Assembly: GCF_010672065.1 (NCBI RefSeq)
Contig: NZ_JAAHHX010000045.1
Coordinates: forward strand, 1-53,264
DNA: 53,264 nt
Direction: 5' to 3'
Source of the DNA: Moorena sp. SIO4A1
Lineage (GTDB): Bacteria; Cyanobacteriota; Cyanobacteriia; Cyanobacteriales; Coleofasciculaceae
The number at the start of each line of letters is the position of its first letter. The stretch's first letter is position 1. Below the pieces are notes generated by a model. That model saw only the letters and a program-made list of their open reading frames with translations. It was not told where the DNA came from and did not search any database. The translations under genes and the position numbers were made by a program. Shown here piece after piece: positions 18,984 to 21,899 of the stretch.

Positions 18984-21899
18984 ATGGGAATCACTGTAGA
19001 GGAAATACTAACACCAGACATCAACAGACCAGCCCGTTACTTAGGTAACGAGTTGGGAGCAGTCCATAAACCTTGGGAAGAAGCTGAGGTACGCTGGGTA
19101 TTGACTTATCCAGAAATCTATGAAGTGGGCGCTTCTAACTTAGGCCATATCATCCTCTACAATATATTGAATTGTCAACCTAGGCAGTTATGCGATCGCG
19201 CCTATCTACCCGCCCCAGACTTGGCAGCTAAATTGCGTTCCACTCAAACCCCTCTGTTTGCTGTCGAGAATCGGCGACCTCTGACAGATTTTGATATTAT
19301 TGGCTTTAGCCTTAGCTATGAATTAGGGGCAACCAACATCTTGGAAATGTTGGATTTGGCAGGAATTCCCCTTACCTGGAAAGACCGTGCTGAGTTTGAT
19401 ATATCGGAAATCCCCCTAATTTTTGCAGGTGGACAAACGGCGACATCGAATCCTGAACCCTATGCTGATTTCTTAGATTTTGTGGATCTTGGCGATGGGG
19501 AAGAATTGTTGCCAGAGATTGGCTTAGTAATCGAAGAGGGCAAAGCAGCTGGCTTAAGTCGAGAAGCGTTACTCCTGGATTTGGCTCAGATACCAGGGGT
19601 GTATGTCCCCCAATTCTATGATATGACTGAGGATGGCTCAGTTAAACCCAACCGCCCTGATGTGCCGAAGCGGATTTTGCGGCGTGTGGCTACACCGATG
19701 CCTGCCTATGCTATTGGACTAGTACCCTATATCCAAACGGTTCATGACCGACTCAAGATCGAAGTGCGACGGGGCTGTACTCGGGGTTGTCGCTTCTGCC
19801 AACCTGGGATGCTGACTCGACCAGCGCGGGATGTGGAACCGGAACAAGTGGTGGAAGCTATTGAACAAGGGATGCGTGCTACAGGGTATAACGAGTTTTC
19901 CCTTTTATCCCTGAGTTGTTCGGATTATCTGGCTCTACCAGCGGTGGGGATGGAAATCAAAAATCGTCTTAAGGATCAGAATATTTCCTTGTCCCTACCG
20001 AGTCAGCGGGTAGACCGCTTTGATGAAAATATTGCCAATATCCTAGGGGGAAATCGCCAGAGTGGCTTGACCTTTGCCCCAGAAGCAGGAACTCAGCGGA
20101 TGCGGGATATTGTGAATAAGGGACTGACTAATGAAGAACTGCTCAGGGGAGTAAAGACGGCATTTGAGCAAGGCTGGGAGAAAGTCAAGCTCTATTTTAT
20201 GATTGGTTTGCCCGGTGAAACGGATGCGGATGTGTTGGGGATTGCAGAAACAGTCCGTTGGTTGCAGCAGGAGTGCCGTGCAAAAGGGAGAAAAACCCTT
20301 AAGTTTAACATAACTGTTTCTAATTTTACCCCAAAACCTCACACCCCATTCCAGTGGCATTCCGTATCGACTTCGGAGTTTAAACGCAAGCAGGAATTGC
20401 TCAAACAAGTATTTGGTCAGATCAGGGGGGTGAGGGTTAATTACACCGATGTTCGGATTTCGGCCATGGAAGATTTCGTCGGACGGGGTGACAGACGCTT
20501 AAGTGCGGTGGTGCGCCGTGCTTGGGAATTGGGGGCAGGGATGGATGCTTGGATGGAAAGCTTGGATCGGGCATTTGCTGCTTGGGAAAATGCGATCGCT
20601 TCATCAGGTCTGACCTGGAAATATCGCCAAGTAGAAAATGGCGAATGGAACGTGATGGCGGGTGTAGAAGAGTTGCAAGTTGGAAGGTTGTTCGCGAAGC
20701 GTGGCCAAAAGGCCAAGGTTGAAAGTTCAGAGCAACCAGCTAACCTACAACCAGCTAACCTACAACCTTCAAACCTTGGCCAAAAGGCCACGCTACGCGA
20801 ACAACCTTCAAACCTTGGCCAAAAGGCCACGCTACGCGAACAACCTTCAACCCTTGGCCAAAAGGCCACGCTACGCGAACAACCTTCAACCCTTGGCCAA
20901 AAGGCCACGCTACGCGAACAACCTTCAACCCTTGGCCAAAAGGCCACGCTACGCGAACAACCTTCAACCCTTAACGCCCTTGATGCTCCCTTGCCTTGGG
21001 ATCATATTGATACGGGAATTGATAAGAATTGGCTCAAGGAAGATTTACAACGGGCGTTAGATGCAGCAACGGTACCGGATTGTTCCTTTGATGGGTGTTC
21101 TCACTGTGGTGTGTGTGGGATTGATTTTGGTCATAATGTGGTGATTGACCCGCCACAGATTCCGCAATTTACTGGTCACTTTAAACCCAATACTAATAAG
21201 GATCAGCGGCTGCGGGTTTGGTTTGGAAAGTTGGGGGATATGACCTTGTTGGGTCATCTGGATTTGGCAAGTCTGTTTGAGAGAGCAGTAAGACGGGCGT
21301 CACTACCAATTCGCTATAGTGGGGGGTTTCGGGCTAATGCTCGGATTATGATTGCTAATGCATTGCCCTTGGGAGCGTCTAGTAGTGGGGAGATTGTGGA
21401 GTTTGAGTTAACTGAGAAAATGCCAGTTGAGGAGTTTAGGGAAAGGCTGGTGTCTGAGTTGCCTATAGAGATTCCGGTGTATGGGGTTGAAGCAGTGGAT
21501 TTGAAGGAACCTGCTGGAACTCAGCTGTTGGAAAAGGCTGAGTATTTGATTCGAGTTGAGGCAATGTCATCGGTGTCTTGGGAAGAGTGGCAGGGTTGGA
21601 TTGAAGCAATTAAGGGTAGTAAGGAAATTTGGTGGGAGCGGTTTACGAAGTCGGGTAAGAAGCAGTGGGTGAATTTATGCGATCGCTTATTTGAGTTCGA
21701 GGTGATGGAACCCCAAAAACCCAAAGATGGTGAAGAGGAGGTTGCGGAGTCTGGGGTGGTTTTGCGGTATGTCGGGAGTTGTTTGAATGATGGCACCATG
21801 TTGCGACCAGAGCATATTATTTATATGTTGGACCAGGTGGCGCAGCAGGAGTTTCGTTTGTTACATGTTCATCGGCAACGGTTGATTCTGCGCAATTGA
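18984..21899 (+). CDS. B12-binding radical SAM protein (TIGR03960-type) fused to a DUF2344/TIGR03936-type C-terminal domain, with repeat-derived linker insertion
   Basis: 971 aa. Radical SAM CxxxCxxC in RRGCTRGCRFCQPG. Linker 20686-20972 encodes LFAKRGQKAKVE..(PANLQ)x2..([13 protein letters not shown])x5. Confidence 0.85.
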   Translation: MGITVEEILTPDINRPARYLGNELGAVHKPWEEAEVRWVLTYPEIYEVGASNLGHIILYNILNCQPRQLCDRAYLPAPDLAAKLRSTQTPLFAVENRRPLTDFDIIGFSLSYELGATNILEMLDLAGIPLTWKDRAEFDISEIPLIFAGGQTATSNPEPYADFLDFVDLGDGEELLPEIGLVIEEGKAAGLSREALLLDLAQIPGVYVPQFYDMTEDGSVKPNRPDVPKRILRRVATPMPAYAIGLVPYIQTVHDRLKIEVRRGCTRGCRFCQPGMLTRPARDVEPEQVVEAIEQGMRATGYNEFSLLSLSCSDYLALPAVGMEIKNRLKDQNISLSLPSQRVDRFDENIANILGGNRQSGLTFAPEAGTQRMRDIVNKGLTNEELLRGVKTAFEQGWEKVKLYFMIGLPGETDADVLGIAETVRWLQQECRAKGRKTLKFNITVSNFTPKPHTPFQWHSVSTSEFKRKQELLKQVFGQIRGVRVNYTDVRISAMEDFVGRGDRRLSAVVRRAWELGAGMDAWMESLDRAFAAWENAIASSGLTWKYRQVENGEWNVMAGVEELQVGRLFAKRGQKAKVESSEQPANLQPANLQPSNLGQKATLREQPSNLGQKATLREQPSTLGQKATLREQPSTLGQKATLREQPSTLGQKATLREQPSTLNALDAPLPWDHIDTGIDKNWLKEDLQRALDAATVPDCSFDGCSHCGVCGIDFGHNVVIDPPQIPQFTGHFKPNTNKDQRLRVWFGKLGDMTLLGHLDLASLFERAVRRASLPIRYSGGFRANARIMIANALPLGASSSGEIVEFELTEKMPVEEFRERLVSELPIEIPVYGVEAVDLKEPAGTQLLEKAEYLIRVEAMSSVSWEEWQGWIEAIKGSKEIWWERFTKSGKKQWVNLCDRLFEFEVMEPQKPKDGEEEVAESGVVLRYVGSCLNDGTMLRPEHIIYMLDQVAQQEFRLLHVHRQRLILRN
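20686..20972. repeat. In-CDS repeat block: one inverted copy (20686-20725) + 2 x 15 nt (CCAGCTAACCTACAA) + 5 x 39-nt perfect/near-perfect tandem units containing the dispersed REP-like core CTTGGCCAAAAGGCCACGCTACGCGAAC
   Basis: Units at 20766, 20805, 20844, 20883 and 20922. 39 nt = 13 codons, so the frame is preserved. Confidence 0.95.

What the first reader, a model, noticed from the sequence alone, without database searches (positions are those of the whole stretch)
20686..20972. Dispersed REP-like repeat expanded in-frame (5 x 39 nt plus an inverted copy) inside a conserved radical SAM enzyme
The unit CTTGGCCAAAAGGCCACGCTACGCGAAC (a short GC hairpin plus CGCTACGCGAAC) occurs intergenically at 45766-45792 and 29011-29037 and in diverged form at 1557, 7838 and 17897. 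Five perfect 39-nt copies plus two 15-nt repeats and one inverted copy form the linker between the B12/radical-SAM domain and the DUF2344-like domain. They encode ([13 protein letters not shown])x5 without breaking the frame. The inverted+direct arrangement creates a potential ~40-bp cruciform inside a coding sequence. This is a textbook case of a mobile/repeat DNA element domesticated as a peptide linker, and a likely hypervariable locus.
Basis: seen in the sequence. Interest (0 to 1): 0.55.

Follow-up and report, generated by a model that had tools for sequence, protein, structure and literature searches.

The report
Tiny mobile hairpin repeats inside enzyme gene
A 24-base hairpin-forming DNA repeat that is scattered through Moorena cyanobacterial genomes has inserted six times, always in frame, into a naturally variable loop of a conserved radical SAM enzyme; this is a clear new example of a known kind of selfish DNA, not a new kind of system.

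Summary
Window 20762-20972 holds 5.4 copies of a 39-nt period. An inverted copy lies at 20691-20714, and an identical 28-mer lies between genes at 45765.

The 39-nt unit is composite. It joins a 15-nt coding microsatellite unit (QP[AST]NL, built from CAACCTT-like heptamers) to a 24-nt element, GGCC-AAAA-GGCC-ACGCTACGCGAA.

In 12 Moorena alleles read as DNA, the rest of the gene has no indels and is 97-99.6% identical. This segment runs from 45 to 336 nt and carries 0, 1, 2, 3 or 5 elements.

Every insertion sits at AACCTT^CAACC on the element's own strand. They occur in both orientations and in two reading frames, and one is nested inside another element. The origin is therefore DNA, not an ancestral peptide.

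The family has a conserved tail and a covarying hairpin. It is abundant in Moorena, either in heptamer repeats or splitting HIP1. That matches Elhai's "small dispersed repeats", previously reported only in Nostocaceae.

- The site lies inside the TIGR03960 domain, not in the interdomain linker.
- "Domesticated" is unsupported.
- The five copies may come from junction-by-junction gain rather than 39-nt expansion.

Verdict: new member of a known kind, moderate interest.

The parts
18984..21899 (+). Host gene: TIGR03960 B12-binding radical SAM protein fused to a TIGR03936/DUF2344 domain, 971 aa, intact reading frame
   Evidence: ORF. Pfam Radical_SAM_N2, Radical_SAM and DUF2344. TIGR03960 scores 598.9 bits against a cutoff of 462 and TIGR03936 scores 183 against 71.9. 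100% identical to Moorea sp. SIO4A1 protein P0001.
20679..20978 (+). Hypervariable segment inside the TIGR03960 domain, between ...NVMAGVEELQ and (NALD)APLPWDHI. It holds all the length variation of the gene among Moorena strains.
   Evidence: the segment is 45-336 nt in 12 strains, while the 1683 nt before it and the 912 nt after it have no indel. HMM positions 549 and 554 flank it.
20691..20714 (-). Inverted 24-nt element. On its own strand it reads GGCC-TTTT-GGCC-ACGCTTCGCGAA. It is inserted at CAACCTT^CAACCTT and encodes FAKRGQKA. Its tail variant turns what would be an in-frame TAG into AAG.
   Evidence: the empty site GGAAGGTTG^AAGGTTGAA (or a near variant) is present in L001, L003, L006, L008 and L009, and the site is filled in the window, L004 and L005..
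20733..20777 (+). Three element-free 15-nt units of the native coding microsatellite (QPANL, QPANL, QPSNL). The first two end in CTA and the junctions after them are unoccupied.
   Evidence: (period 15) and the tokenisation.
20778..20972 (+). Five identical 24-nt elements GGCCAAAAGGCCACGCTACGCGAA (20778-20801, 20817-20840, 20856-20879, 20895-20918, 20934-20957; each encodes GQKATLRE). They alternate with 15-nt units (SNL, STL, STL, STL, STL), and each element sits at a CTT^CAACC unit junction.
   Evidence: The identical array is present in the independent assembly SIO3I6 (L130).
45768..45791 (+). Intergenic copy identical to the array copies, flanked by CTT and CAAC in a heptamer-like context
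29011..29036 (+). Family member with a different stem that still pairs (TAGCCC-gaa-GGGCTA) and the same tail. It splits a HIP1 octamer (GCGAT|...|CGC), 27 nt after the stop codon of a 733-aa ORF.
   Evidence: The same variant occurs in HIP1 context in L025 and, with GCGAT on the left only, in L084.
1558..1581 (-). Family member TCGGC-gta-GCCGA|CGCTGCGCGAA, lying in a 41-nt insertion in the first hairpin loop of a HEARO (IscB guide) RNA
7839..7862 (-). Diverged family member GGGC-aaa-GCCC|GAAGCTGCGCGAA, intergenic
17897..17922 (-). Diverged family member (tail CGCTACGGGAA, imperfect hairpin), flanked on both sides by the 11-nt direct repeat AGGTGCGACCC

Best explanation
The window is a contig of the filamentous marine cyanobacterium Moorena (Moorea) sp. 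SIO4A1. Near the C-terminal end of its TIGR03960 radical SAM domain, the enzyme has a loop that tolerates insertions in many filamentous cyanobacteria.

In Moorena this loop is encoded by a 15-nt coding microsatellite, (CAACCNNNNAACCTT)n = (QPxNL)n. Each unit is made of two CAACCTT-like heptamer-type units (7 + 8 nt).

A very small non-autonomous repeat has inserted into this array. It is 23-26 nt long: a 4-6 bp G+C-rich hairpin followed by the conserved tail ACGCTACGCGAA. It is of the 'small dispersed repeat' type. Each insertion falls precisely at AACCTT^CAACC on the element's own strand, with no target duplication.

In SIO4A1 one copy is inverted, upstream in an AAGGTTG-AAGGTTG doublet. Five identical direct copies occupy all five CTT^CAACC unit junctions, which gives an apparent 39-nt (15 + 24) tandem repeat.

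The copies persist for three reasons. The net insertion is 24 nt, a multiple of three. The frames used carry no stop codon, and in the one frame where the canonical sequence would give TAG only non-TAG variants are seen. The loop tolerates length changes of about 100 residues.

Shown: the family, its hairpin covariation, filled and empty sites, target identity, insertions in different frames and orientations, a nested insertion, and strain polymorphism.

Inferred:
- The five copies arose mainly by repeated gain at individual junctions (targeted insertion or out-of-register conversion), with 39-nt slippage a possible contributor.
- An unknown trans-acting activity mobilises the element.
- The insert has no selected function.
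For: Identity and host gene.

Composite 15 + 24 structure and filled versus empty sites, read codon by codon in 12 strains.

Same DNA in different frames and orientations: GQKATLRE (window, L001, L130, L132, P0124, P0125), WPKGHATR (L002, L008), FAKRGQKA (inverted), and the tttc-loop variant GLSATLRE (L003, L131)..

Every one of these insertions lies at AACCTT^CAACC (AATCTT^CAACC in L008, whose target has one substitution) on the element's strand. The boundaries cannot be shifted, so there is no target duplication.

Nested 24-nt element inside the inverted copy in SIO3I6, at CGCTT^CGCGAA. This is the same internal target as an unrelated nested case in L042.

All gene length variation is confined to this segment: 0 indels in 2595 nt at 97-99.6% identity.

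Family census:
- In Moorena DNA, 47 of 56 exact tails have an abutting perfect hairpin, with 12 different stems. The figure is 3% at random positions and 0 of 72 for chance hits in non-cyanobacteria.
- All 5 stem pairs show compensatory double changes, with covariation 0.315 against 0.136 and 0 of 500 shuffles as high.
- By context, 19 copies lie in AACCT...CAAC heptamer context and 14 split HIP1.

Other proteins carry in-frame copies: the CHASE2 protein in L110 and an 817-aa protein in L042 with (TETNLQPS)n.

Stop-codon filter: all three copies read in the TTC-GCG-NAG frame carry AAG or CAG instead of the canonical TAG.

Junction occupancy differs on a shared backbone. SIO3I7 has SNL SNL STL with no element where SIO4A1 and SIO3I6 have SNL-E-SNL-E-STL. 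SIO2I5 and SIO4G3 both have 8 units but carry 1 and 2 elements.

Literature: SDR5 inserts precisely inside HIP1 between nt 3 and 4 (PMC4390886). [quoted passage not shown]
Against: No mobilising enzyme or mechanism was identified. The near-constant CAACCT/CAAC flanks could reflect copying by flanking homology rather than true target recognition. In L035 the element is followed by CAACCT even though the surrounding array has an 8-nt CACAACCT period.

The window's pattern, (SNL-E)x2 (STL-E)x3 STL, can also be produced by a few 39-nt slippage events. A true tandem duplication that includes an element exists elsewhere, the 60-nt duplication in CHASE2.

The window and most comparison genomes are short-read metagenome-assembled genomes, so the exact copy number in a 211-nt near-perfect array could be misassembled. 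Against this, SIO3I6 gives the identical array.

For the HIP1-type copies no true empty HIP1 site was observed. The only element-lacking allele found reads GCGAACGC, which fits deletion between GCGA repeats.

The structure prediction was too poor overall (mean pLDDT 52) to prove that the segment is a surface loop.
Confidence: 0.75

Rival explanations
1. One insertion followed by replication slippage or unequal recombination of the composite 39-nt unit. Here the five copies are a tandem expansion, not repeated insertions.
For: The five elements are 100% identical, and the array can be derived from SNL-E-SNL-E-STL by repeating E-STL. The 15-nt array itself clearly changes by slippage, with 2 to about 15 units among strains. 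A 60-nt tandem duplication carrying an element exists in the CHASE2 gene. Tandem arrays of element plus short spacer occur elsewhere: L128 3x30, L035 2x39, and Hormoscilla L061 5x22.
Against: Close relatives keep about 8-9 15-nt units while the element count varies from 1 to 5. SIO2I5 and SIO4G3 differ by exactly one 24-nt element, with unchanged units on both sides. SIO3I7 has the clade-specific SNL SNL STL run without elements where the window has elements at both junctions. Slippage in a 39-nt register cannot add or remove the element alone. All five CTT^CAACC junctions are filled and both CTA^CAACC junctions are empty, which is what a sequence-specific process predicts.
Confidence: 0.35
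2. The element is not transposed. It is copied into the gene by homology-dependent gene conversion or template switching from other genomic copies that sit in similar CAACCTT heptamer repeats. The apparent target specificity would then be only a requirement for flanking homology.
For: About 80% of AAAA/TTTT-loop copies lie in AACCT...CAAC(C) context. In L035 the 3' CAACCT travels with the element inside an 8-nt-period array. The intergenic window copy has the same CTT...CAAC flanks. Loops occur in both orientations relative to the tail (aaaa/tttt, gta/tac), which suggests hairpin-mediated template switching.
Against: The HIP1-type and nested copies have only 3-5 nt of flank similarity, too short for homologous recombination. 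Some AAAA-loop copies have unrelated flanks: L023, L042 at 6724, and L069 at 7419. The boundaries are exact to the base in all filled/empty pairs.
Confidence: 0.25
3. The repeat has been domesticated. The extra GQKATLRE modules, or the hairpins in the mRNA or DNA, tune enzyme function or expression, making this an adaptive contingency locus.
For: The frame is always preserved. The region is extremely variable among strains. The strong predicted DNA/RNA structure could in principle affect expression.
Against: Many Moorena strains, including the complete genomes JHB and PAL, have no element, and PAL has only two 15-nt units. All changes are in frame, so there is no on/off switching. The same element inserts in other, unrelated proteins and mostly between genes. 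Copies are depleted in long open frames, 32% against 53% for random positions, as expected for a tolerated parasite.
Confidence: 0.07
4. The copy number, or the array itself, is an assembly artefact of a short-read metagenome-assembled genome.
For: The array is 211 nt of near-identical 39-mers, and the source is a metagenome-assembled genome (record names).
Against: An independent assembly of a different strain (SIO3I6) is 99.6% identical in the flanks and carries an extra nested insertion, yet has the identical five-copy array. Intermediate alleles with 1, 2 and 3 copies exist in other assemblies.
Confidence: 0.05
5. The segment is an ancestral protein repeat maintained at the peptide level.
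For: None beyond the in-frame periodicity.
Against: The same DNA is read in a different frame in other strains, and an inverted copy gives an unrelated peptide. Copies are nucleotide-identical to intergenic copies, and orthologues outside the clade lack the repeat.
Confidence: 0.01

Closest known systems
Small dispersed repeats (SDR1-8) of Nostoc punctiforme and relatives (Elhai et al. 2008, Genome Res 18:1484; details from my own memory of the abstract, plus PMC4390886 and PMC5861425)
   Same: Length of 21-27 nt (here 23-26). A conserved hairpin supported by compensatory changes. Copies embedded in tandem heptamer repeats. One subfamily precisely splits the HIP1 octamer (GCGAT^CGC here, which equals GCG^ATCGC on the other strand). 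Nested insertions of one element inside another. No coding capacity and an unknown mobilising activity.
   Different: [quoted passage not shown] Sequence identity to any published SDR consensus could not be checked. Here several copies sit in frame inside one conserved enzyme, with natural filled and empty alleles.
Rickettsia palindromic elements (RPEs) inserted in frame into protein-coding genes (Ogata et al. 2000, from memory; reviewed in PMC10969869)
   Same: Palindromic selfish repeats that insert in frame into conserved proteins at positions compatible with folding, adding a peptide module.
   Different: RPEs are about 100-150 bp, belong to an unrelated lineage, usually occur once per gene, and have no reported heptamer or HIP1 target.
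REP/REPIN elements mobilised by RAYT (Y1 HUH) transposases, including the GTAG-tagged REP families reported in cyanobacteria (PMC3116915, PMC3733652)
   Same: A short G+C-rich hairpin with a conserved unpaired flank. On the complementary strand the tail reads TTCGC-GTAG-CG-stem, so a GTAG lies 2 nt from the stem. Many dispersed copies.
   Different: These copies are not mainly extragenic and are not organised as inverted doublets. They insert at exact target sequences, including inside genes. No RAYT gene was looked for or found.
STRR heptamer repeats of filamentous cyanobacteria, and coding microsatellites
   Same: The (QPxNL)n backbone is built from CAACCTT-like heptamer-type units and varies in copy number by slippage. 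The window is full of heptamer arrays.
   Different: The period is constrained to 15 nt (7 + 8) by the reading frame, and the array serves as a landing pad for a second kind of repeat.
MITEs such as Nezha in cyanobacteria
   Same: Non-autonomous, dispersed, structured.
   Different: MITEs are 70-300+ bp with terminal inverted repeats and target-site duplications. None of these features is present here.

Membership tests
Small dispersed repeats (SDR, Elhai 2008) | Very short (21-27 nt) repeat dispersed in many copies in the genome | tested here: met
   Elements are 23-26 nt. 60 hairpin-plus-tail copies were found in the window plus 31 Moorena loci from a truncated scan.
Small dispersed repeats (SDR, Elhai 2008) | Conserved secondary structure supported by compensatory mutations | tested here: met
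   12 distinct stems with the same tail. All 5 pairs show double changes, with covariation 0.315 against 0.136 and 0 of 500 shuffles as high. Slid registers score 0.03-0.11.
Small dispersed repeats (SDR, Elhai 2008) | Embedded in tandem heptamer repeats, or precisely inside HIP1 (SDR5: between nt 3 and 4) | tested here: met
   19 copies lie in AACCT...CAAC heptamer context and 14 lie between GCGAT and CGC. Geometry as in PMC4390886. An empty HIP1 site was not directly observed.
Small dispersed repeats (SDR, Elhai 2008) | Nested insertions and evidence of recent mobility | tested here: met
   Nested copies in L130 and L042 at the same internal target. Filled/empty polymorphism among strains that are 99.2-99.6% identical in the flanks.
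Small dispersed repeats (SDR, Elhai 2008) | Sequence match to one of the published SDR1-8 consensus sequences | not testable with these tools
   The paper (PMC2527708) is not held, and no citing paper gives the sequences.
REP/REPIN-RAYT | Predominantly extragenic location | tested here: not met
   32% of copies lie in stop-free frames of 300 aa or more, including at least three different proteins.
REP/REPIN-RAYT | GTAG or CGTC tetranucleotide immediately adjacent to the palindrome | tested here: inconclusive
   GTAG is present on the complementary strand but lies 2 nt from the stem (TTCGC GTAG CG TGGCC...). The cyanobacterial GTAG-12, -15 and -16 consensus sequences are only in figures that are not held.
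REP/REPIN-RAYT | Organisation as inverted doublets (REPINs) and a cognate RAYT gene | not tested
   Most copies are single or in direct tandem. The genome was not scanned for Y1 transposases.
MITE | Terminal inverted repeats, target-site duplication, length of 70 bp or more | tested here: not met
   The insert is 24 nt, its boundaries cannot be shifted, and there is no duplication in filled/empty pairs.
TIGR03960 / TIGR03936 radical SAM fusion (host gene) | Scores above the curated cut-offs of both NCBIfam models | tested here: met
   598.9 bits against 462.3 and 183.1 against 71.9. The repeat interrupts TIGR03960 between profile positions 549 and 554.

The most novel reading that the evidence does not exclude
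The 24-nt hairpin element is a currently active, sequence-targeted mobile element among the smallest known. Its length (a multiple of three) and its nearly stop-free sequence (5 of 6 frames open) let it colonise coding DNA. The Moorena radical SAM loop would then act as a natural trap, recording repeated independent insertions at AACCTT^CAACC. With about 40 Moorena genomes available, these filled/empty pairs could finally identify the unknown machinery that moves small dispersed repeats (a HUH/RAYT-like nuclease, an RNA intermediate, or hairpin-primed template switching).
Probability: 0.3. Interest if true: 0.6.

Novelty: new member of a known kind. Interest (0 to 1): 0.4.

Why it matters
How 20-30-nt repeats move in cyanobacterial genomes has been an open question since they were described in 2008. 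This locus gives base-exact filled and empty sites in strains that differ by under 1% elsewhere. It defines a target (AACCTT^CAACC) and shows no target duplication. It includes both orientations, two reading frames and a nested event.

It also extends this type of element outside the Nostocaceae. It shows how selection on the host reading frame filters which copies survive: the net length is a multiple of three, and TAG-free variants are the ones seen.

In practice the segment is a very sensitive strain-typing marker for Moorena. It also warns that peptide repeats in cyanobacterial proteins, and the assemblies across them, may be selfish DNA. It does not reveal a new biological system.

Tried and rejected
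(1) Elhai et al. 2008 could not be read by DOI or by PMC id, so a direct comparison with the SDR1-8 consensus sequences was impossible. Citing papers give properties but no sequences.

(2) The GTAG/CGTC REP survey mentions cyanobacterial families, but their sequences are in figures and the supplements do not help.

(3) Rfam at gathering thresholds finds no RNA family at the repeat. The only hit in the window is HEARO at 1354-1605.

(4) The AlphaFold model of the 971-aa protein, built from a 66-sequence alignment, was poor (mean pLDDT 52, pTM 0.37). Residues 541-663 are coil at pLDDT about 28, but the whole model is too weak to count as evidence. No fold search was run.

Non-cyanobacterial hits are chance matches, with 0 of 72 carrying a hairpin.

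(6) An attempt to find an empty HIP1 site for the HIP1-type subfamily used the CHASE2 orthologues. It found only a GCGAACGC allele, best explained as a deletion between GCGA repeats.

(7) Ancestral peptide repeat, MITE and assembly artefact were each considered and rejected (see Rival explanations and Membership tests).

(8) The metagenome scan and a search for RAYT/Y1 transposases were not run.

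
Full report
**1. What is in the sequence**

Tandem Repeats Finder gives 20762-20972, period 39, 5.4 copies, 99% matches, preceded by a 15-nt repeat at 20733-20776.

The 28-mer CTTGGCCAAAAGGCCACGCTACGCGAAC occurs six times exactly, five in the array and once at 45765, against none in 100 shuffles. The 12-nt tail with up to one mismatch occurs 10 times against 0.05 expected. This adds copies at 29026(+), 1557(-), 17897(-) and the inverted copy at 20690(-). 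The copy at 7838(-) is more diverged.

The diverged copies keep a hairpin through different, still complementary stems: TAGCCC/GGGCTA, TCGGC/GCCGA and GGGC/GCCC.

The array lies in an intact 971-aa ORF, 18984-21899.

The inverted and first direct copies, together with their heptamer flanks, form 47-nt arms that are 83% complementary and 41 nt apart. As single-stranded DNA the region folds far better than shuffles: -71.6 against -33.6 kcal/mol, z = -11.

**2. Host gene and exact position**

The protein is a TIGR03960 B12-binding radical SAM protein fused to TIGR03936/DUF2344. It is 100% identical to a protein of Moorea (Moorena) sp. SIO4A1.

TIGR03960 profile positions 482-549 match just before the variable segment, and positions 554-600 match just after it. 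DUF2344 starts at residue 742.

The repeat therefore interrupts the TIGR03960 domain about 50 residues before its Cys-rich C-terminus. It is not in the interdomain linker.

An AlphaFold model was too poor overall to add evidence.

**3. The 39-nt unit is composite**

In Moorena orthologues the same position holds a (QP[AST]NL)n array with 2 to about 15 units. Other filamentous genera have unrelated low-complexity inserts there, so the loop is generally permissive.

I read the DNA of 12 alleles codon by codon. The unit is 15 nt, CAACCNNNNAACCTT, made of two CAACCTT-like heptamer-type units (7 + 8 nt). The extra 24 nt is GGCC-AAAA-GGCC-ACGCTACGCGAA.

The window reads: ANL ANL SNL-E-SNL-E-STL-E-STL-E-STL-E-STL, where E is the 24-nt element.

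Outside this segment the 12 genes have no indel (1683 + 912 nt) and are 97-99.6% identical. The segment itself ranges from 45 to 336 nt.

**4. DNA-level insertions at one target**

Filled/empty comparisons show at least four kinds of event:
- (a) An inverted copy (window 20691-20714, FAKRGQKA) between two AAGGTTG heptamers. It is present in the window, L004/L005, L130 and L132, and absent in L001, L003, L006, L008, L009 and L131.
- (b) Direct in-frame copies (GQKATLRE) at unit junctions.
- (c) A tttc-loop variant (GLSATLRE) in L003, and four times in M. bouillonii PNG.
- (d) A copy inside a unit, read in another frame (WPKGHATR), in L002 and L008.

On the element's own strand every one of these lies at AACCTT^CAACC, or at AATCTT^CAACC in L008, whose target has one substitution. 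The boundaries cannot be shifted, so there is no target-site duplication.

In SIO3I6 a second 24-nt family member, TCGCC-gta-GGCGA|CGCTGCGCGAA, is nested in the inverted copy at CGCTT^CGCGAA. An unrelated nested case in L042 uses the same internal site.

**5. Signature of selection on the reading frame**

In the frame used by the inverted copy, the canonical tail would read TTC GCG TAG. The three copies found in that frame (window, the SIO3I6 nested copy, and L042) carry AAG, CAG and AAG.

The net insertion is 24 nt, and five of the six frames of the element are open. I read this as a filter: only in-frame, stop-free insertions in a tolerant loop survive.

**6. Copy-number series, and how five copies arose**

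| Elements | Strains or alleles |
|---|---|
| 0 | JHB, PAL, SIO3G5, P0004 |
| 1 | SIO2I5 |
| 2 | SIO4G3, SIO1F2 |
| 3 | SIO3I7/8 |
| 5 | SIO4A1 and, independently assembled, SIO3I6 |

Three observations bear on the mechanism:
- The number of 15-nt units stays at 8-9 in this clade.
- SIO2I5 and SIO4G3 differ by exactly one element.
- SIO3I7 has the clade-specific SNL SNL STL run without elements where the window has an element at both junctions.

In the window all five CTT^CAACC junctions are filled and both CTA^CAACC junctions are empty.

This favours gain or loss of the 24 nt at individual junctions, by targeted insertion or out-of-register conversion, over pure 39-nt slippage. It is not decisive. 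A few 39-nt slippage events can give the same array, and a true 60-nt duplication carrying an element exists in a CHASE2 gene.

**7. The family**

A truncated scan of species-representative genomes with CNACGCTACGCGAAC returned 31 Moorena loci, 18 other loci I grouped as cyanobacterial (Anabaena, Richelia, Sphaerospermopsis, Dolichospermum, Nostoc, Hormoscilla, Chamaesiphon, Okeania, Leptolyngbya and one Candidatus Obscuribacterales MAG), and chance hits elsewhere.

| Sample | With an abutting perfect hairpin |
|---|---|
| Exact tails in Moorena | 47 of 56, with 12 different stems |
| Random positions in Moorena DNA | 3% |
| Non-cyanobacterial hits | 0 of 72 |

On a tail-anchored alignment all five stem pairs show compensatory changes, and the covariation score exceeds all 500 shuffles and all slid registers.

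Two contexts dominate:
- Copies with A/T loops sit in AACCT...CAAC heptamer repeats.
- Copies with gta/tac loops split the HIP1 octamer (GCGAT|...|CGC).

HIP1 itself occurs 17 times in the window against 0.8 expected. Loops occur in both orientations relative to the tail (aaaa/tttt, gta/tac), which suggests hairpin flipping.

About a third of copies lie in long open frames, against 53% of random positions. Examples are an 829-aa CHASE2 protein and an 817-aa protein with (TETNLQPS)n repeats. Coding insertions are therefore depleted but not rare.

**8. Comparison with known systems**

Size, covarying hairpin, heptamer and HIP1 contexts, nesting and lack of coding capacity all match the small dispersed repeats of Elhai et al. 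2008. SDR5 is reported to insert between nt 3 and 4 of HIP1 (PMC4390886), which is the same geometry as here on the other strand. [quoted passage not shown] I could not check the consensus sequences.

The in-frame colonisation of a conserved protein works like the Rickettsia palindromic elements (PMC10969869).

REP/RAYT membership is not supported, because the copies are not extragenic and are not in doublets. A GTAG lies 2 nt from the stem, and RAYT genes were not searched for. MITE criteria fail.

**9. Verdict**

This is a new member of a known kind, with useful natural filled/empty alleles for an element class whose mechanism is still unknown. Interest 0.4.

Noticed in passing
window 1-1605 (-): A complete HEARO RNA (RF02033, the guide RNA of IscB) scores 128.5 bits at 1354-1605. 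It is followed by an IscB-like ORF (MRVFVLNKNRQPLDPC...) that runs off the window start. The RNA's first hairpin loop carries a 41-nt insertion relative to the family model, and that insertion contains a 24-nt member of the repeat family at 1558-1581.
   Followed up: partly
window, whole: The HIP1 octamer GCGATCGC occurs 17 times in 53 kb against about 0.8 expected. Dozens of heptamer tandem repeats are scattered through the intergenic DNA, including TTAATTC x18 at the contig end (53138-53264) and a 14-nt array at 53045-53126.
   Followed up: partly
window 17886-17933: The diverged family copy at 17897-17922 is flanked on both sides by the same 11-nt sequence AGGTGCGACCC. This is either a target duplication or an insertion between two copies of a short tandem repeat. 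The copies in the radical SAM gene show no duplication.
   Followed up: no
L131 (Moorena bouillonii PNG), variable segment of the orthologous gene: Besides four tttc-loop elements, this allele carries a different 24-nt insert, CCCTACGGGAACGCCAAAGGCGAA (PYGNAKGE), in which a tail-like part precedes a CGCC-aaa-GGCG hairpin. The same sequence occurs in L089. It is possibly a second small-repeat family that uses the same array.
   Followed up: no
L110 5183-5266 and CHASE2 orthologues P0246-P0259: An 829-aa CHASE2 sensor protein carries a HIP1-type element in frame (IGRRPRYA). Strains have one unit (810 aa), a 60-nt tandem duplication with two elements (830 aa), or a duplication whose second copy lacks exactly the 24 nt and reads GCGAACGC (822 aa). 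The last form is consistent with deletion between GCGA repeats.
   Followed up: partly
L042 5535-7988 (-): An 817-aa membrane/TPR-like protein of Moorena sp. SIO3I8 has a (TETNLQPS)n coding repeat. It holds several elements, one nested inside another, and repeats the architecture seen in the radical SAM gene.
   Followed up: partly
L061 7432-7541 (Hormoscilla sp.): Five head-to-tail copies of a 22-nt relative, TGGCTGCGCCACGCTACGCGAA, with no spacer at all. The family therefore also forms pure tandem arrays in another genus.
   Followed up: no
window 22253-23119 (-) versus L001, L003, L007-L009, L131: The gene downstream of the radical SAM gene differs among strains. It is a pentapeptide-repeat protein in the window, L004, L005 and L130 (where the overlapping call has no Pfam hit), and a large ABC transporter in the others. 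Synteny therefore breaks right after the gene.
   Followed up: no
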